Part shown: positions 24,950 to 55,531 of the stretch, one piece after another
Numbering within the stretch: the first letter of the stretch is position 1
Layout: every line of letters starts with the position of its first letter
Assembly: GCA_964608145.1 (NCBI GenBank)
Contig: CAZSMD010000001.1
Coordinates: forward strand, 1 to 57,318
Reading direction: 5' to 3'
Source of the DNA: an uncultured Candidatus Saccharibacteria bacterium
GTDB taxonomy: Bacteria; Patescibacteriota; Minisyncoccia; Phycocordibacterales; EsbW-18
DNA: 57,318 nucleotides
Program-made: the position numbers and the translations under genes
Notes under the pieces: generated by a model
The model's database searches: none
What the model saw: the letters and a program-made list of their open reading frames with translations, nothing else
What the model was told of the DNA's origin: nothing

Positions 24950-26740
24950 TTATTCTGCTGTCCGGCGCACCTTTGCGCGTTCAAGTTCAGTCAAATACTG
25001 CTTCCGCAAACGGACTGACTTCGGAGTAATTTCAAGATATTCGTCGTCGGCCATAATTTCCAAACCGCGCTCGATTGAAAGCGTAAACGGAGGCACAAGC
25101 ATGATCGCTTCGTCAGAGCCCGATGCCCGCATGTTCGTGAGCTGTTTCCCCTTGGTCGGATTAACCGGCATTTCTTCACCCTTTGATGTGTTGCCGATGA
25201 CCATGCCTTCGTACACTTCCGTAGCCGGACCAACATACAGCACGCCGCGGTCCTGAAGATTCCAGAGCGAGTACCCAAGTGTCTTTCCCGAAACCATGGA
25301 GATCATAGAGCCTGTCGGCCGTTTGACAATCTCTCCCGCAAAATGACGGAAGCCGACAACGCGTGACGACAAAATCCCTTCTCCTTTTGTATCAATGATG
25401 AATTGGTTGCGGTATCCGAGAAGCCCGCGGGTCGGACCCTCAAAAATAAGGCGGACAACGTCGCCGTGTGTGCGCATATCATGAAGCACAAATCCTCGCA
25501 TGCCGAGGCGTTCAATGATAGACCCCTGGTATGTAACCGGCGTATCGACGACCACTTCTTCAAACGGCTCTACTTTGACGCCGTTCTCTTCGCGCGTAAT
25601 AACGTGCGGCTGTGACACCTGCAGTTCGTACCCCTCACGGCTCATGTTTTCGAGCAAAATCGCAATATGCAGTTCTCCGCGTCCTGACACGACAAAACTG
25701 TCTGACGCATTAAAATCCACACGAAGACCGACGTTTACTTCAAGTTCGCGTTCCAATCGTTCCCGGATTTGCCGCGTCGTGACAAACTTCCCCTCGCGCC
25801 CCGTAAACGGCGAGTTGTTGACCAAAAAATTAAGCGTAATCGTCGGTTCGTCAACAGCAATTGCCGGCAACGGTGCAATATCCGCATCCGTCGTTACGGT
25901 TTCGCCGATATCAATGTCAGGAAGACCTGCAATCATGACGATATCGCCCGCCTGCGCTTCTGCAGAGTCGACTCGTTCAAGCCCGTTGAATGTAAAGAGT
26001 TTTGTAATTTTGCCTTGACGTGTTTCGCCGGTCGCTTTTTTTACAAACACGTTTTGGTTGGCAAGCACTTTGCCTTCATACACACGCGCAACCGCGAGGC
26101 GTCCGAGAAAGTTATCGTATGCCAGGTTGAACGGCTGGAGACGAAGCGTCTTCTCTTCCTCGCCTTTTCCCGCAGACGGAACATGCTCAAGGATTGTATC
26201 GAGAAGCGGCGTCAAGTCGTCCGACTCGTCGGTCAGCTTCTTTTTTGCCGTACCTGTGCGGCCGATGGCATACACAATCGGGAAACTTGCCTGCTCATCG
26301 TTGGCACCAAGCTCCAAGAAAAGTTCAAGCACCTGCTCCTCGGCATGCGCCGGATTTGCAGCCGGTTTATCAATTTTATTGATGACAACAATCGGGTGCA
26401 GTCCGAGTTCAAGTGATTTTTTGAGCACAAAGCGTGTCTGCGGCATCGGACCTTCCTGGGCATCAACAACCAAAAGCACCGAATCAACCGAGCGGAGCAC
26501 GCGCTCCACTTCCGAACCGAAGTCGGCATGTCCGGGCGTATCAACGATGTTGATCTTCGTATCCCGGTACATAACCGAGGCGTTTTTCGCATAAATCGTA
26601 ATACCGCGCTCTTTTTCAAGCGTGTTCGAGTCCATGGAGACGCCCTCAGCGACGGCACCGCACTGGCGGAGCATCGCATCGGTCAAAGTCGTCTTGCCGT
26701 GGTCGACGTGGGCAATAATGGCGATATTTCTGATTTCCAT
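24950..26740 (-). CDS. typA: translational GTPase TypA/BipA
   Basis: MEIRNIAIIAHVDHGKTTLTDAML...DTPGHADFG...NKIDKP. Start trimmed to M20. Confidence 0.95.
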   Translation of the reverse strand: MEIRNIAIIAHVDHGKTTLTDAMLRQCGAVAEGVSMDSNTLEKERGITIYAKNASVMYRDTKINIVDTPGHADFGSEVERVLRSVDSVLLVVDAQEGPMPQTRFVLKKSLELGLHPIVVINKIDKPAANPAHAEEQVLELFLELGANDEQASFPIVYAIGRTGTAKKKLTDESDDLTPLLDTILEHVPSAGKGEEEKTLRLQPFNLAYDNFLGRLAVARVYEGKVLANQNVFVKKATGETRQGKITKLFTFNGLERVDSAEAQAGDIVMIAGLPDIDIGETVTTDADIAPLPAIAVDEPTITLNFLVNNSPFTGREGKFVTTRQIRERLERELEVNVGLRVDFNASDSFVVSGRGELHIAILLENMSREGYELQVSQPHVITREENGVKVEPFEEVVVDTPVTYQGSIIERLGMRGFVLHDMRTHGDVVRLIFEGPTRGLLGYRNQFIIDTKGEGILSSRVVGFRHFAGEIVKRPTGSMISMVSGKTLGYSLWNLQDRGVLYVGPATEVYEGMVIGNTSKGEEMPVNPTKGKQLTNMRASGSDEAIMLVPPFTLSIERGLEIMADDEYLEITPKSVRLRKQYLTELERAKVRRTAE

Positions 26741-26797
26741 AAAAAATTCGCCTCGGAGGCGTGTATCCATAATACAACAAAAATGCTTCGCGGGCAA

Positions 26798-27127
26798 TCA
26801 AAACTCAAAAAGCACATCGGGAAAGTTCTTGATTCGGCCGCGGTCATCAACTTCAATCCCCTCTTCTTTGTAGAGTTTCATGCGCTTTGCGCGGTATGCT
26901 TCGGTAACCCAAATGCGTCCGTCGGCATACACAATCCGGTGAAACGGTATCGGAGCACCCTCATCAGCAGCTCGGGACAAAATTGATGTAATACTTTGTG
27001 CCGCCATGCCGCCGCCGCCCGCCGCGCGAGCGATTCTCCCGTACGTTGTTACACGGCCGCGCGGAATCTTTCGTGCTGCCCGCACCACGCGCTCGCTGAA
27101 TGTCGGTCCGACGGATTTCTTTTTCAT
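26798..27127 (-). CDS. alkyltransferase-like (ATL) protein: MGMT DNA-binding fold without the acceptor Cys
   Basis: RIPRGRVTTYGRIA...PIPFHRIV. The canonical PCHRV has Phe in place of Cys. Confidence 0.75.
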   Translation of the reverse strand: MKKKSVGPTFSERVVRAARKIPRGRVTTYGRIARAAGGGGMAAQSITSILSRAADEGAPIPFHRIVYADGRIWVTEAYRAKRMKLYKEEGIEVDDRGRIKNFPDVLFEF

Positions 27128-27174
27128 ATTTTTTCCATTCTACCATTTACACGGTATCCCGATATACTTGAAGT

Positions 27175-27801
27175 ATGAAACGATTTCCGGCATACGATGT
27201 ACCTGAGTTTGATGTGTTCAAAAAACTCGACACTCCCGCAAAGGTGCAGGATTTCCTTGAAACCTTCCCCATAAATTTTGAAGCGCACGGAAGCACCTGC
27301 CACTCGCCGCTCTATGTCCTCCGTCATAAAAAAGCGCAGTGTCTTGAGGGTGCACTGCTTGCCGCCGCAATTTTCTGGTACCACGGCGAGCGCCCGCTTT
27401 TGCTTGACCTTGAGACAACCGACGATGACGATGACCACGTCGTCGCCCTGTTTAAGCAGGACGGCTGTTGGGGCGCCGTAAGCAAAACAAACCATGCTGT
27501 TTTGCGTTATCGAGACCCTGTATTTAAAACCATTCGGGAACTCGTGCTGTCATATTTCAGTGAATATTTTCTTGACGACGGCAGAAAGACGCTCCGCCGG
27601 TATTCAGAACCATTTGACATGCTTCAGTTTGAAGATGCCTGGCTGACATCGCGCCGGCACATGTGGAACATTGAGGACGAAATCATCAAATCTCCGCACA
27701 AAAAAATCCTCACGCCGCGGCAGATTCGCAGACTGCGTCCCGCCGATCCGATTGAGAGCGCCGCAGGAAAACTTGTCGCGTGGAAGAAGAAAGAAAAATA
27801 G
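27175..27801 (+). CDS. transglutaminase-like cysteine-protease-fold protein
   Basis: Candidate Cys-His-Asp triad context: KAQCLEGALLAAA, DDHVVALF, WGAVSKTNH. Confidence 0.6.
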   Translation: MKRFPAYDVPEFDVFKKLDTPAKVQDFLETFPINFEAHGSTCHSPLYVLRHKKAQCLEGALLAAAIFWYHGERPLLLDLETTDDDDDHVVALFKQDGCWGAVSKTNHAVLRYRDPVFKTIRELVLSYFSEYFLDDGRKTLRRYSEPFDMLQFEDAWLTSRRHMWNIEDEIIKSPHKKILTPRQIRRLRPADPIESAAGKLVAWKKKEK

Positions 27802-27806
27802 TGCTG

Positions 27807-27881
27807 TGACCTCATCGGGATTTGAACCCGAGTTTGCGCCGTGAGAGGGCGCCGTCCTGGACCAGGCTAGACGATGAGGCC
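27807..27881 (-). tRNA. tRNA-Glu (anticodon CUC), no encoded CCA
   Basis: Minus strand GGCCUCAUCGUCUAGCCUGGUCCAGGACGGCGCCCUCUCACGGCGCAAACUCGGGUUCAAAUCCCGAUGAGGUCA. 7-bp acceptor, anticodon stem GCGCC/GGCGC, loop CUCUCAC, T arm UCGGG-UUCAAAU-CCCGA. Confidence 0.93.
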
Positions 27882-27889
27882 AATTTTTT

Positions 27890-27997
27890 ACAGAACACCT
27901 AATCATTCTGCCTTGGTGCACTCTCACGGCACCGTGAGAGGGGTGAGACAGTGCGGGGCACTGTCGAACCACGGACCTTGGCGAACAATGAGGCCGT
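27890..27997 (-). ncRNA. tRNA-Glu-derived structured RNA (degenerate tandem tRNA copy or novel small RNA; outer arms also resemble 4.5S RNA), cotranscribed with tRNA-Glu
   Basis: ORF-free. Starts GGCCUCAU, the same as tRNA positions 1-8, 114 nt upstream of the tRNA. Shares the 11-mer CCCUCUCACGG with the tRNA anticodon arm. Perfect hairpins at 27947-27965 and 27921-27940. Own promoter. Confidence 0.55.
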
Positions 27998-28003
27998 GCG
28001 GTG

Positions 28004-28032
28004 ATAATACCAAAAAACTCCCATGTTTCCAA
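28004..28032 (-). promoter_or_regulatory. sigma70-type promoter TTGGAA-17-TATTAT driving the structured RNA plus tRNA-Glu
   Basis: Minus strand: TTGGAA (28027-28032), 17-nt spacer, TATTAT (28004-28009). The predicted start falls 0-2 nt before GGCCUCAU. Confidence 0.6.
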
Positions 28033-28125
28033 GGTTTTATGTATGTGTTAAAAAATATTTTGCACTTTTCCGTTTTTGGTGTACTTTATCGAACAGACAA
28101 CCAGCCCCCACAAGGAGGTGGCGCA

Positions 28126-28332
28126 ATGGGAGGACCCGAAAGAGTCGTGGCGCGCATCCAACAGTTGTGCGAAGCACTCTCGAACGACGTGGGGAAGACC
28201 AGCATGGAGTACGCTGTGCTCAGGGTCTGGGCCGTGTTCGACCCGCGTTTTACGTTCGCGGGAGTGAACTGCAAGGAGGTCATCCGGGACTATTTCCACC
28301 CCGACCAGGAGTCCCTTCCCGGGCTCTCTTGA
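28126..28332 (+). CDS. hypothetical small protein P1 (68 aa)
   Basis: AAGGAGG 7 nt upstream of ATG: MGGPERVVARIQQLCEALSNDVGKTSMEYAVLRVWAVFDPRF... Followed by its own terminator. This is an internal start within track ORF 27874-28332. Confidence 0.6.
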   Translation: MGGPERVVARIQQLCEALSNDVGKTSMEYAVLRVWAVFDPRFTFAGVNCKEVIRDYFHPDQESLPGLS

Positions 28333-28352
28333 GCAAGCACTCGTTGTACAGA

Positions 28353-28378
28353 GGCGGCCGCACGGCCGCCTTTTCTCT
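28353..28378 (+). terminator. intrinsic terminator after P1
   Basis: GGCGGCCG CA CGGCCGCC followed by TTTTCTCTT. Confidence 0.7.
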
Positions 28379-28432
28379 TATTGACTTTATACCGCAAAAG
28401 AACAGAATCAAGAGCAGAGAAAGGGGGTCTTT

Positions 28433-28648
28433 ATGGAAATGAAGTTTCCACCGGGAACCTGGGTCGGAGACACCATCGGATACCTCGGCGTCAACGGCGG
28501 TATCGTCGTCTCTGCCCGCACATCAAGCTGGCCTGGGTTTGACGGCGGCAGACCGTATTACCTCTACACCGTCCGTCTTAAGGACGGCAGCACCCGCGAC
28601 GAGGCCGAGTGTTATCTCTTTTCCTTTGAGAAAGAGAAGTCTGCGTGA
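28433..28648 (+). CDS. hypothetical small soluble protein P2 (71 aa)
   Basis: AAAGGGGG RBS. MEMKFPPGTWVGDTIGYLGVNGGIVVSARTSSWPGFDGGRPYYLYTVRLKDGSTRDEAECYLFSFEKEKSA is beta-rich (SH3-like guess). Confidence 0.6.
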   Translation: MEMKFPPGTWVGDTIGYLGVNGGIVVSARTSSWPGFDGGRPYYLYTVRLKDGSTRDEAECYLFSFEKEKSA

Positions 28649-28767
28649 GCGTCCATACGTTGTTCAAGGCGGGCATCGCGACACTTCTCGTCGGAGGACT
28701 CATCGTTCTGTGTTCCGTGAGCGTTGCGTATACGCTCATCCGTGGAAAACCTGTGCGCTTTACATGA
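28645..28767 (+). CDS. 40-aa hydrophobic peptide P3, translationally coupled to P2 (GTGA overlap); below the ORF-track size cutoff
   Basis: Own translation: (M)SVHTLFKAGIATLLVGGLIVLCSVSVAYTLIRGKPVRFT. One TM helix and a basic C-terminus. Its GTG overlaps the P2 TGA stop. Confidence 0.5.
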   Translation: MSVHTLFKAGIATLLVGGLIVLCSVSVAYTLIRGKPVRFT

Positions 28768-28768
28768 A

Positions 28769-28801
28769 GCGGCGGTCGAGTTGCTCGACCGCCGCGTTTT
28801 T
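28769..28801 (+). terminator. strong intrinsic terminator after P3
   Basis: GCGGCGGTCGAG TTG CTCGACCGCCGC followed by GTTTTT. Confidence 0.8.
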
Positions 28802-28848
28802 GCGCCTTGTGTTTTTACCTCTCACTTCACGATTTACTCTCCTCATTT

Positions 28849-30135
28849 TTACCTCTCCTTCCACGCTTTTCCCTGCCGAACCAGGAGTTTTTCCTTCTTT
28901 TCGGGTTCCGCCATGACATGTTCAACGACATGCTCGAGACGAACACCTTGCGAACCCTTTACAAGCACCACATCACCTTCCGCGACAACATTTGCGAGAT
29001 ATGCCCCCGCTTGGTGCGCATTGCTATAGAGCGATACATTTGAGAGCCCGTGCTGCTGTGCACTTTTCGCTGTCTCTTGAACAGAGGAACCGACACAGAC
29101 AAGCATACTCACTGTTTTTGCGGCCTGCTCACCCAAAAATGCATGCGCCTCTGACGAATGTTTGCCGAGTTCCCGCATATCTCCGAGAACGGCGATTTTC
29201 CTTCCCTGTGTCGAAATCTCACTCAGCGTTTCAAGAGCGTGTTCCGCGGCAATTGGGGACGCATTATACGAATCATCAATAATCACGCTGCCCTTTTTCC
29301 CGGGAACAAGGTGCATACGCCCGGGCGGTGTTTTAAACGTACTTAGCGCCTCGGTCATCTCCACGACACTAATCCCCTGTGAAAGCCCTACGGAAAGCGC
29401 GGCAAGCACGGGGTACATGATGTGCCGTCCGAGTACATCGTGAAGACGTATCGGCACAACATTTCCTTCAAACATCACTTTGAAACTTACTCCCTCAGGG
29501 CGTCCTGCCTCGTCATATTCAATCGCATAGTAGTCGGCATACAGGTCCGCATCCTGGTTATAACCAAACGTATAGACGCGATTTTTTATGCTGCCCGACA
29601 GTTCGCGCACTTTTTCATCGTCATAGCCGAGAAGAGCGACGCCGTTTGGTTTGAGCGCCTTGAGAATCATGCTTTTTTCAACAAAAACCGCATGCGGGGA
29701 AGAAAAAAATTCAACGTGCACCGGTGTCTCGGCGACAAGCGTAATCACCGCGGCGTCAAGCCGTACCCACCGTACAAGCCGTTCCATGTCACCCGGATGA
29801 TCAACGCCCATTTCAAGCACGACCCAGTCGGGATAACTGTGGAAACCGAAAGCAACCCAAAAACCTCGCAGGATATTCATCAGCCATCCACCCGGGCTAT
29901 CCCACGCGGTGTCGAGTCCTAAGATGGTCAGCGGAACGCCCAAATCCGAATTAAAACTTTTATCGCTCTTCGCAACAGTAAACAGAGAACCGAAGATGGT
30001 CGCAATGGCGTCCTTCGTTGTCGTTTTTCCAACGCTTCCGGTGACTCCGATGACACGCGGTTTAAAACGCCACAACACTACCCGCGCCTCAAACGTGAGC
30101 ATTGCAACAACAATTTTTTTAAGAAACGATTTCAT
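28849..30135 (-). CDS. murF: UDP-N-acetylmuramoyl-tripeptide--D-alanyl-D-alanine ligase
   Basis: VIGVTGSVGKTTTKD P-loop with Mur ligase middle and C-terminal domains. Sits in the dcw cluster. Confidence 0.92.
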   Translation of the reverse strand: MKSFLKKIVVAMLTFEARVVLWRFKPRVIGVTGSVGKTTTKDAIATIFGSLFTVAKSDKSFNSDLGVPLTILGLDTAWDSPGGWLMNILRGFWVAFGFHSYPDWVVLEMGVDHPGDMERLVRWVRLDAAVITLVAETPVHVEFFSSPHAVFVEKSMILKALKPNGVALLGYDDEKVRELSGSIKNRVYTFGYNQDADLYADYYAIEYDEAGRPEGVSFKVMFEGNVVPIRLHDVLGRHIMYPVLAALSVGLSQGISVVEMTEALSTFKTPPGRMHLVPGKKGSVIIDDSYNASPIAAEHALETLSEISTQGRKIAVLGDMRELGKHSSEAHAFLGEQAAKTVSMLVCVGSSVQETAKSAQQHGLSNVSLYSNAHQAGAYLANVVAEGDVVLVKGSQGVRLEHVVEHVMAEPEKKEKLLVRQGKAWKER

Positions 30136-55157: not shown

Positions 55158-55219
55158 CGCGGAGCAGTGCCAACAGAAAAACACCCCCTTGGGGTGCTTT
55201 TCGTGCTGACTGCTCCGCG
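55158..55219 (-). terminator. nested hairpins: inner intrinsic terminator (55176-55202) enclosed by an 11-bp outer stem
   Basis: The inner hairpin on the minus strand is GAAAAGCACCCC AAG GGGGUGUUUUUC followed by a U-rich tail. The outer stem pairs CGCGGAGCAGT (55158-55168) with ACTGCTCCGCG (55209-55219). Confidence 0.55.
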
Positions 55220-55223
55220 GGTA
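55212..55223 (-). repeat. 12-nt direct copy of the tRNA-Asn 3' end
   Basis: GCTCCGCGGGTA also occurs at 55292-55303, the tRNA acceptor 3' strand. An inverted partial copy lies at 55158-55168. Confidence 0.8.
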
Positions 55224-55286: not shown

Positions 55287-55292
55287 CCTCAG

Positions 55293-55364
55293 CTCCGCGG
55301 GTAGGATTCGAACCTACGACCAACTCCTTAACAGGGAGTCGCTCTACCACTGAGCTACCGCGGA
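55293..55364 (-). tRNA. tRNA-Asn (anticodon GUU), no encoded CCA
   Basis: Minus strand UCCGCGGUAGCUCAGUGGUAGAGCGACUCCCUGUUAAGGAGUUGGUCGUAGGUUCGAAUCCUACCCGCGGAG. Anticodon loop CUGUUAA. Confidence 0.93.
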
Positions 55365-55525
55365 ATATTGTGTCGTGGACACATACCACTATTTCGAGGT
55401 GCTCATATCTGAGCTACTACGACAAGCGAGGATGAACGCGAAAGCCGTGCTTTCATGTTCTTCGAGCGCCGTCGGAGAAAGGCCGGCTCTCGCCGGACTT
55501 ACCGCGGAATATTGTGGTGCATCCG
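55365..55525 (-). ncRNA. hairpin-rich ~150-nt leader of tRNA-Asn containing partial copies of the tRNA 5' end and D arm
   Basis: The 17-mer TACCGCGGAATATTGTG occurs at 55356-55372 and 55500-55516. CTGAGCTAC occurs at 55350-55358 and 55409-55417. Hairpins at 55483-55496, 55458-55479, 55434-55460, 55401-55414 and 55370-55382. No ORF. Confidence 0.5.
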
Positions 55526-55531
55526 AGCAAA

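What the first reader, a model, noticed from the sequence alone, without database searches (positions are those of the whole stretch)
27882..28032. Promoter-driven structured RNA derived from tRNA-Glu sits directly upstream of tRNA-Glu(CUC)
A near-consensus minus-strand promoter (TTGGAA-17-TATTAT) drives a ~110-nt ORF-free RNA that runs straight into tRNA-Glu. The tRNA has no promoter of its own. The RNA begins with GGCCUCAU (27988-27995), identical to tRNA positions 1-8, exactly 114 nt upstream of the tRNA 5' end. It repeats the GGUCC of the D region. It contains CCCUCUCACGG (27932-27942), identical to the tRNA anticodon-arm block including CUC (27839-27849). It ends with AUGAUUAGGU, which resembles the acceptor 3' strand. 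Three things make it not a tRNA. A perfect 8-bp hairpin (27947-27965) accounts for the extra ~21 nt between the 5' end and the anticodon block. The anticodon block has become a perfect 9+9 palindrome (27921-27940). There is no T arm. Two CACGG and two CCGUG motifs allow mutually exclusive pairings. The outer arms (UGUUCGCCAAGGUC and GCACCAAGGCAGAAUGA) also resemble helix 5/8 strands of E. coli 4.5S RNA as I recall it, with an AA/AA internal loop. The GGAA-GGAAGCA apex is missing, so it is neither a canonical tRNA nor a canonical SRP RNA.
Basis: partly seen in the sequence, partly recalled or inferred. Interest (0 to 1): 0.75.

Follow-up and report, generated by a model that had tools for sequence, protein, structure and literature searches.

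The report
tRNA-derived fold-back leader before tRNA-Glu
A roughly 100-base structured RNA leader, built from a sense copy and an antisense copy of the front half of tRNA-Glu, sits between the promoter and the real tRNA-Glu gene in a few related Parcubacteria and is missing in sibling strains; it is a real, undescribed element, but it is not an SRP RNA or a tRNA.

Summary
The element (U, minus strand 27995→27882) is no Rfam family, tRNA or SRP RNA.

Homologues exist in three other Parcubacteria species (MurF 74%, 70% and 52% identical). Each has the same layout: promoter, then U of 112-116 nt, then tRNA-Glu(CUC). All fold alike. Seven base pairs changed on both sides, and the central core is about 92% conserved while the flanks are about 60-70%.

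U is best described as a fold-back. Its 5' arm resembles the tRNA 5' half, its 3' arm is the antisense of that, HP2 is the apex and HP1 is a side branch. The DNA therefore reads sense-antisense-sense, as a tandem-inversion duplication would.

Strains of the window's own species carry other versions of this locus. One has the tRNA inverted, no U and a downstream tRNA-3'-end fold-back. Another has a U variant behind a different promoter. So U is dispensable.

tRNA-Asn in the window has an analogous leader.

My best reading is a co-transcribed, self-masking pre-tRNA leader removed by RNase P. A maturation switch, a trans-acting RNA or a DNA-level scar are not excluded. Transcription was not tested.

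The parts
28027..28032 (-). -35 hexamer TTGGAA of the promoter that drives U and tRNA-Glu
   Evidence: a 9 of 12 match with a 17-nt spacer. The region is homologous to the promoter in front of U in L049 (sequences, compared by eye).
28004..28009 (-). -10 hexamer TATTAT with a TG extension, 8 nt before G27995
   Evidence: A TATTCT/TATTAT box also lies 8-10 nt before the first G of U in L038, L046 and L049. A TATTCT or TATCCT box lies 8-9 nt before the tRNA itself in the U-less loci L001, L037, L050 and L054.
27882..27995 (-). U, the whole tRNA-Glu-derived leader (114 nt from its first G to the base before the tRNA)
   Evidence: Fold. The covariance model R1 hits 27894-27995 at 70 bits. Homologues are in L038, L046, L049 and, partially, L002.
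27971..27995 (-). Sense arm: a copy of tRNA-Glu positions 1-25 (acceptor 5' strand and D region). It forms the 5' strands of helices P1-P3.
   Evidence: Direct repeat with the tRNA (D3). Pairing partners are listed.
27942..27970 (-). Branch P4 plus HP1. HP1 is the perfect 8-bp hairpin at 27947-27965.
   Evidence: Four pairs changed on both sides between the window type and L038 (helix 3).
27921..27940 (-). HP2, the apex of the fold-back. The 5' arm is an anticodon-loop copy (CUCUCACGG) and the 3' arm is its antisense (CCGUGAGAG).
   Evidence: I5. Conserved in all four homologues. There is one A-U to G-U change, and the innermost pair changes from G-C to A-U in L046.
27897..27920 (-). Antisense arm: the 3' strands of P3-P1, complementary to the sense arm and to the 5' half of the real tRNA
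   Evidence: The duplex with the real tRNA 5' half is -39.9 kcal/mol, z = -4.5.
27882..27896 (-). Unstructured A/U-rich spacer between U and the tRNA
   Evidence: Unpaired. It is variable and unpaired in all homologues.
27807..27881 (-). tRNA-Glu(CUC), with no encoded CCA
   Evidence: 55.9 bits.
27801..28069 (.). Allele-specific cassette, replaced wholesale in sibling strains of the same species
   Evidence: L001 aligns to 25543-27800 at 99.7% and to 28070-30071 at 98.2%. In between, only the 77-nt tRNA segment matches, and in the opposite orientation.

Best explanation
U is the 5' leader of the tRNA-Glu(CUC) primary transcript.

Origin. The promoter-proximal half of the tRNA gene was duplicated as sense-antisense-sense. 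This is the pattern of a tandem-inversion duplication, a replication U-turn at a short inverted repeat. A small perfect hairpin (HP1) was added later.

Proposed action.
1. The tRNA's own type of promoter now sits 114 nt upstream and starts transcription at or within 1-2 nt of G27995.
2. As the RNA emerges, the tRNA-like sense arm and the antisense arm zip into a self-contained fold-back. HP2 is the apex and HP1 is a side branch.
3. The tRNA then folds on its own.
4. RNase P cuts at G27881 and releases the tRNA and a 100-114-nt leader.

Why the structure is kept. Selection keeps the two arms complementary. An unmasked antisense arm, or an unmasked second copy of the acceptor 5' strand, would trap the tRNA's 5' half or 3' end and block maturation.

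Dispensability. The leader is otherwise dispensable. I propose that recombination between the direct repeats (U 5' end and tRNA 5' end) can delete it. No sequenced allele shows that junction.

Shown: anatomy, promoter match, conservation, compensatory changes, complementarity, polymorphism. Inferred: transcription, co-transcriptional folding, RNase P cleavage, and the selective reason.
For: - Promoter. It is the only promoter-like site upstream of the tRNA. The same -10 type at the same 8-10-nt distance precedes U in L038, L046 and L049. It precedes the tRNA directly in the U-less loci L001, L037, L050 and L054.
- Homologues. They occur in 3 further species, with MurF 74%, 70% and 52% identical. 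Start-to-start spacing is the same, at 112-116 nt.
- Fold. The three-way fold is the same in each, with z from -2.7 to -5.4.
- Covariation. On the hand-made alignment, 86.6% of cells pair, against 30-49% when partners are slid. Seven pairs changed on both sides, against 0-1 when slid, and only 1 of 500 shuffles is as good.
- Differential conservation. By my count from the hand alignment, window against L049, the core P4/HP1/HP2 is about 92% identical and the arms about 60-73%. The tRNA itself is about 89% identical, window against L046 (sequences printed).
- Complementarity. The 3' arm is complementary to the real tRNA 5' half at -33 to -40 kcal/mol, z -2.5 to -5.4. Modular and interleaved folds of the precursor are close in energy. 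Masking therefore has something to act on.
- Dispensability. Allele B strains of the same species lack U.
- A parallel case. An analogous self-closing leader, starting with a copy of the tRNA 5' end, precedes tRNA-Asn.
Against: - No expression data exist. The transcription start, processing and stability are inferred.
- In thermodynamic folding of the whole precursor, the native leader does not protect the tRNA acceptor stem. Its pairing probability is 0.00-0.31, and leaders with a shuffled 3' strand give 0.00-0.06, so no clear protection is seen. The masking argument therefore rests on untested folding kinetics.
- Pure masking does not explain why the HP1 stems are 100% identical in three species, or why the HP2 sequence is nearly invariant.
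- The closing rod is weak in L049 (duplex p = 0.23).
- Only four full sequences exist, and the alignment was fitted by hand to the structure.
Confidence: 0.45

Rival explanations
1. Maturation switch. The leader toggles between its own fold-back and an interleaved fold. In the interleaved fold its antisense arm pairs with the tRNA 5' half and anticodon loop, and its sense arm pairs with the tRNA 3' end. That would gate how much mature tRNA-Glu(CUC) is made, for example in response to temperature, a protein, or free tRNA-Glu.
For: The two folds are nearly isoenergetic in all three complete precursors: -75.4 against -78.8, -73.7 against -73.9, and -82.2 against -88.5 kcal/mol. The antisense arm pairs with 10 contiguous bases of the real anticodon loop and stem (inverted repeat I1). 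The high sequence conservation of HP2 fits a need to match the tRNA.
Against: Near-equal energies follow automatically from the sense arm being a tRNA copy, so they are not independent evidence. No ligand or protein partner is identified. Strains without U appear to manage without such control.
Confidence: 0.2
2. Stable trans-acting small RNA. After RNase P cleavage, the leader persists and works on its own as a protein-binding RNA or decoy, through the conserved HP1/HP2 core.
For: By my count from the hand alignment, the core is about 92% identical between species whose flanks and promoters are about 60-70% identical. That is as conserved as the tRNA itself. The fold is compact and the 5' and 3' ends are paired. 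Patchy, polymorphic distribution is typical of accessory functions.
Against: No partner gene is consistently linked. Neighbours are cell-wall genes and small conserved ORFs. No Rfam family matches. No targets were identified. Most sampled strains of the species lack it.
Confidence: 0.13
3. DNA-level scar. The element is a by-product of replication template-switching at a highly transcribed tRNA gene. Quasi-palindrome correction and gene conversion with the tRNA keep it looking 'perfect'. It has no RNA function, or the palindromes serve a DNA-binding or recombination role.
For: - The DNA order is sense-antisense-sense.
- The innermost pair of HP2 covaries (G-C to A-U in L046) although a 2-nt loop cannot close in RNA (helix 5).
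- Both hairpins are perfect.
- Similar tRNA-end copies flank tRNA-Asn, and a tRNA-3'-end fold-back follows tRNA-Glu in allele B, L045, L052 and L054.
- The locus is rearranged between strains and species, including inversion of the tRNA.
- The mechanism is documented elsewhere: U-turn-like inversions at short inverted repeats (PMC4417113) and tandem inversion duplications (Kugelberg et al. 2010, as cited there).
Against: A neutral scar should not keep the same length, branch position and pairing between lineages whose MurF is only 52% identical. It should also not show a core four to five times better conserved than its arms. No recombinase is encoded within about 8 kb.
Confidence: 0.17
4. A divergent SRP (4.5S) RNA or an unconventional but functional tRNA.
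For: The acceptor-like closing helix starts with the tRNA's own first 8 bases.
Against: No hit to any SRP or tRNA model appears even at E <= 10, and ARAGORN is negative. There is no GNRA apex and no T arm. The SRP-like strings are absent in L046 and L038. The element is absent from sibling strains, which an essential SRP RNA could not be.
Confidence: 0.02

Closest known systems
Bacterial pre-tRNA 5' leaders and external transcribed spacers, some of which act as RNAs in their own right (for example 3'ETS-leuZ of E. coli; from my own knowledge)
   Same: It is transcribed with a tRNA from one promoter and is expected to be released by RNase P. It has no ORF and sits immediately next to the tRNA.
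   Different: It is much longer and more structured than ordinary leaders. It is built from a sense copy and an antisense copy of the tRNA itself. No trans target is known.
tRNA (Rfam RF00005) and tRNA pseudogenes from tandem duplication
   Same: It shares the first 8-22 bases, D-region residues, the 7-nt anticodon loop sequence and an acceptor-like 3' strand with the adjacent tRNA-Glu. It lies in tandem with that tRNA.
   Different: It has no cloverleaf, no T arm and no exposed anticodon loop. The middle is replaced by HP1 and an antisense arm. Its structure is conserved and distinct from a tRNA, rather than decaying.
[quoted passage not shown] 2010, as cited in PMC12625342 and PMC4417113; Zampini et al. 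2015, PMC4417113)
   Same: The copies run sense-antisense-sense with a short spacer. The junction lies at a short inverted repeat. The arrangement could in principle be lost by recombination between the direct copies, which I propose here but did not demonstrate.
   Different: Those are transient laboratory or somatic rearrangements of kilobases, or under 50 bp. Here the product is about 100 bp, fixed in several species, and apparently under structural constraint.
Bacterial small SRP RNA (4.5S, RF00169)
   Same: Similar length. The 5' and 3' ends pair into a rod. Two short strings in the window copy are similar.
   Different: No helix-8 tetraloop or conserved loops, and no model hit. The similar strings are not conserved in homologues. 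The element is dispensable.
Bacterial Y RNAs with a tRNA-like module (YrlA; from my own knowledge)
   Same: About 100 nt, with a closing stem formed by both ends plus tRNA-derived sequence.
   Different: No T-arm or D-arm mimic is folded as in a tRNA. No Rfam hit. No rsr (Ro) gene nearby.

Membership tests
tRNA (RF00005) | Cloverleaf with a T arm and an exposed 7-nt anticodon loop, scored by a covariance model | tested here: not met
   cmscan at E <= 10 and ARAGORN find only the downstream tRNA. The same holds in homologues.
Bacterial small SRP RNA (RF00169) | Helix 8 with a GNRA tetraloop and conserved symmetric and asymmetric loops; score above threshold | tested here: not met
   No SRP-family hit at E <= 10. 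The CCAAGGCAGA string is absent in L046 and L038.
Bacterial small SRP RNA (RF00169) | Essential, single and universally present in every strain | tested here: not met
   The element is missing from allele B strains of the same species.
Pre-tRNA 5' leader | Lies between the only promoter and the tRNA 5' end, with no terminator in between | tested here: met
   Promoter at 28032-28004. No second promoter or terminator-like site lies between it and 27881.
Pre-tRNA 5' leader | Actually transcribed and removed by RNase P | not testable with these tools
   No expression data are available. RNase P (RNA or protein-only) could not be looked for outside the 57-kb window.
Conserved structured RNA | Same secondary structure in divergent homologues, with compensatory changes | tested here: met
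   7 pairs changed on both sides and 86.6% of cells paired. Caveat: only 4 sequences, aligned by hand.
Tandem inversion duplication product | Three adjacent copies of one segment with the middle one inverted | tested here: met
   The sense arm repeats the tRNA 5' half (D1, D3). The middle arm is complementary to both (I1, 66, 87).
Integrase att-site remnant at a tRNA | Direct repeat of the tRNA 3' end flanking an island with an integrase | tested here: not met
   In U the repeat is of the 5' half. There is no island and no integrase within about 8 kb. The downstream D module of allele B does carry a 3'-end repeat, but only about 140 nt separate the copies.
MITE / REP / IS200-IS605-derived palindromic element | Many dispersed copies in a genome | tested here: not met
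   HP1 and HP2 occur once each in the window. The covariance model finds copies only in front of tRNA-Glu in 345 kb of loci.
Y RNA / YrlA | Model hit and a linked rsr gene | tested here: not met
   No Rfam hit. Neighbouring genes are TypA, an Ogt-like gene, MurF and FtsI.

The most novel reading that the evidence does not exclude
In a clade of Parcubacteria, tRNA genes repeatedly acquire fold-back modules made from sense and antisense copies of their own ends. Examples are U in front of tRNA-Glu, the D module behind it in other alleles, and the leader of tRNA-Asn. Under this reading the modules are kept because they gate tRNA maturation or act as tRNA-directed antisense or decoy RNAs. That would be a strain-variable layer of tRNA control born by inverted duplication, much as young hairpin-RNA genes arise from their targets in plants.
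Probability: 0.2. Interest if true: 0.75.

Novelty: new variant of a known kind. Interest (0 to 1): 0.5.

Why it matters
It would be a documented case of a new structured RNA born from a tRNA gene by inverted duplication and then held under structural constraint for a long time, in the little-studied candidate phyla radiation. The same species carries strains with and without the element, and with the tRNA in either orientation. That offers a natural experiment on what such a leader does to tRNA maturation. The parallel modules at tRNA-Asn and downstream of tRNA-Glu suggest a more general process at tRNA genes in these reduced genomes. If the element is only a tolerated scar, it is still a useful warning that perfect hairpins and compensatory changes can arise from DNA-level processes.

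Tried and rejected
- Rfam. Searched at gathering threshold on the whole window, and at E <= 10 or lower on the locus, on the homologues and on the tRNA-Asn leader. Only tRNAs were found.
- SRP RNA, tRNA, Y RNA, terminator or attenuator, and MITE readings were all rejected (see the membership table).
- Viral contig scan with a joint tRNA/element pattern found only unrelated phage tRNA-Glu(UUC) genes.
- The genome-collection scan with the same pattern returned 24 loci, none matching U directly. L038's U was found only by reading upstream of its tRNA.
- The metagenome scan with the HP1 pattern gave two chance hits in unrelated coding sequence with no similarity to the window.
- Synteny through the 208-aa neighbour failed. 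Relatives at 79-82% identity have no tRNA there.
- The 68-aa neighbour has no database homologue found by word search. A weak match to an L038 ORF shows up by BLASTP.
- In-silico 'insulation' test. Thermodynamic folding does not show that the native leader protects the tRNA better than scrambled leaders.
- A simple inversion cannot convert allele A into allele B. The promoters and flanking modules are unrelated.
- The literature searches found no description of such an element.

Full report
**Observation**

On the minus strand, a promoter-like site TTGGAA-17-TATTAT with a TG extension lies at 28032-28004. It is the only such site upstream of tRNA-Glu(CUC) at 27807-27881.

Eight bases after the -10 box the sequence GGCCTCAT begins at 27995. 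It repeats the first 8 bases of the tRNA exactly 114 nt upstream (D3). The anticodon block is repeated 13 of 14, including an exact CCCTCTCACGG (D1). The perfect 8-bp hairpin (27947-27965) and the perfect 9+9 palindrome (27921-27940) are both present.

The 114-nt RNA folds at -44.3 kcal/mol, z = -4.4, and none of 200 shuffles folds as well. An independent assembly reproduces the locus base for base (L015).

**What it is not**

Rfam finds nothing here except the tRNA, even at E <= 10. The same is true for the homologues. ARAGORN sees no second tRNA.

The 4.5S-like strings are not conserved in two of the three homologues, and the element is missing from sibling strains. It cannot be the SRP RNA. 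The 5' CCGUG needed for the 'mutually exclusive pairing' idea is absent in every homologue.

**Organism and context**

The neighbouring genes are MraZ, RsmH, FtsI, MurF, TypA, ThrRS and LysRS. Database names of relatives include Campbell-, Pace-, Jorgensen- and Wolfebacteria. Both place the window in Parcubacteria, part of the candidate phyla radiation. FtsI-MurF-tRNA-Glu is an old synteny in this radiation.

**Homologues**

Two collection scans with sequence patterns did not find the element directly. Reading upstream of tRNA-Glu in MurF-linked loci did.
- L038, a Campbellbacteria MAG with MurF 52% identical.
- L046, MurF 74% identical.
- L049, MurF 70% identical.
- A truncated variant in L002, a strain of the window's own species.

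In each, a TATTCT/TATTAT box lies 8-10 nt before GGCCTCAT. The element is 112-116 nt and tRNA-Glu(CUC) follows directly.

A covariance model built from the four copies finds only these copies in 345 kb, which includes about 35 tRNA-Glu loci. The element is therefore confined to a small part of the group.

**Structure**

All four copies fold the same way. The two ends pair into a rod (P1-P3). A short helix P4 carries hairpin HP1, and HP2 completes a three-way junction (z -4.4, -3.6, -2.7, -5.4).

I aligned the four copies by hand.
- 86.6% of cells pair, against 30-49% when partners are slid by 1-3 columns.
- Seven pairs changed on both sides, against 0-1 when slid.
- Only 1 of 500 shuffles does as well.
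- Four of the double changes are in HP1/P4. There L038 has a different sequence at the same place and length.

By my count from the hand alignment (window against L049), the P4/HP1/HP2 core is about 92% identical. The arms are about 60-73% identical. Comparing the promoter sequences by eye gives about 68%. The tRNA itself is about 89% identical, window against L046 (sequences printed).

Caveats: there are only four sequences, the alignment was fitted to the structure, and the rod is weak in L049.

**A simpler description**

The 3' strand runs continuously from the 3' arm of HP2 through P3, P2 and P1. It is the antisense of the tRNA-like 5' strand. HP2 is the apex of a long imperfect fold-back, and HP1 is an insertion in the sense arm.

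The same 3' half is strongly complementary to the 5' half of the real tRNA: -33 to -40 kcal/mol, z -2.5 to -5.4 (I1). The DNA therefore reads sense (U 5' arm), antisense (U 3' arm), sense (tRNA). [quoted passage not shown] 2010 as cited there and in PMC12625342). My account of that mechanism is from memory.

**Polymorphism**

Contigs whose neighbouring 208-aa protein is 100% identical carry three versions of the interval 27801-28069. Their flanks are 98-99.7% identical.
- Allele A is the window, plus L004 and L015.
- Allele B is found in the contigs from six sequencing runs. It has a different promoter immediately after the 208-aa gene. The tRNA is in the opposite orientation, U is absent, and a terminator follows. 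Then comes a module of about 130 nt (D) that ends in a 21-nt copy of the tRNA 3' end. That copy is paired to an antisense T-arm piece.
- Allele C (L002) has allele B's promoter followed by a U variant. The contig ends there.

Allele A's arrangement and promoter match L049 and L046. Allele B's match L045, and the D module recurs in L052 and L054. Each sample shows one allele, so these are strain differences and not phase variation.

U is therefore dispensable. I propose, without a sequenced junction to show it, that it can be lost through its 8-22-nt direct repeat with the tRNA.

**Second example**

tRNA-Asn (55292-55364, minus strand) is preceded by a leader that begins with a 17-nt copy of the tRNA start and its upstream 8 bases. 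The two copies lie 144 nt apart. The leader contains other tRNA-Asn pieces and is closed by an antisense copy of its own 5' end. It folds with z = -3.4. A 12-nt copy of the tRNA-Asn 3' end lies 71 nt downstream.

**Mechanism**

Best reading (0.45): a co-transcribed leader that folds on itself and is cut off by RNase P. The arms stay complementary because an unmasked antisense arm, or an unmasked second acceptor strand, would trap the tRNA.

Against this reading, equilibrium folding of the whole precursor shows no protection. It gives near-equal energies for the modular and the interleaved fold. That result leaves room for a maturation switch (0.2).

The strong conservation of the core leaves room for a free-standing small RNA (0.13). 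Several features keep a DNA-level scar alive (0.17): the covarying innermost pair of HP2, which cannot close in RNA; the perfect hairpins; and the recurrent tRNA-end copies. SRP RNA or tRNA: 0.02.

**Novelty**

There is no Rfam family, and I found no literature describing such an element. It is a new variant of known kinds: pre-tRNA leaders and tRNA-derived RNAs, arising by inverted duplication. It is of moderate interest until expression data exist.

Noticed in passing
window 55365-55530 (minus strand), with repeats at 55500-55516 and 55356-55372: tRNA-Asn(GUU) also has a long structured leader. It starts with a 17-nt copy of the tRNA 5' end plus its 8 upstream bases, 144 nt upstream. It contains D-arm-like and T-stem-like pieces and is closed by an antisense copy of that 5' end. 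The 166-nt stretch folds at -61 kcal/mol, z = -3.4. It matches no Rfam family.
   Followed up: partly
window 55212-55223 (minus strand): A 12-nt copy of the tRNA-Asn 3' end (TACCCGCGGAGC) lies 71 nt downstream of the tRNA, just after its terminator.
   Followed up: no
L001 2375-2548; also L045, L052 and L054 downstream of tRNA-Glu: In loci without U, tRNA-Glu is followed by a terminator and a module of about 130 nt (D). D ends in a near-invariant copy of the tRNA T-loop-to-3'-end sequence, GTGACCAAATCCCGATGAGGTCACA in L001, L045 and L052. In L054 the copy is a diverged variant (...GAATCCCGATAGGGTCACA). The copy is paired to an antisense T-arm piece. In L052 it differs from the resident tRNA's own 3' end.
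   Followed up: partly
window 27801-28069 compared with L001, L002 and L045-L049: The tRNA-Glu gene sits in opposite orientations relative to MurF and the small ORFs. This is seen in strains of one species and again between related species. Assembly contigs often break at this locus.
   Followed up: partly
window 28126-28332 and 28433-28648 (plus strand): The small ORFs between tRNA-Glu and MurF look like orphans in the word-indexed database but belong to conserved small-protein families. The 71-aa ORF is 36% identical to ORFs in L049 and L054. The 68-aa ORF matches an L038 ORF weakly. L046 and L045 share two others.
   Followed up: partly
promoters before tRNA-Glu in L001, L037, L050 and L054, and before U in the window, L038 and L049: The -10 box lies only 8-9 nt before the first base of the tRNA or of U, so these transcripts would start within 1-2 nt of the mature 5' end. 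L045 and L052 have longer leaders.
   Followed up: no
L048 5040-5063 compared with L049 2274-2297: Two contigs with an identical MurF and 99.9% identical DNA diverge after the 17th base behind the same promoter: CCTGGTCCA against CCATAGTCCA. L048 ends there. It may lack U, or it may carry a more tRNA-like U variant.
   Followed up: no
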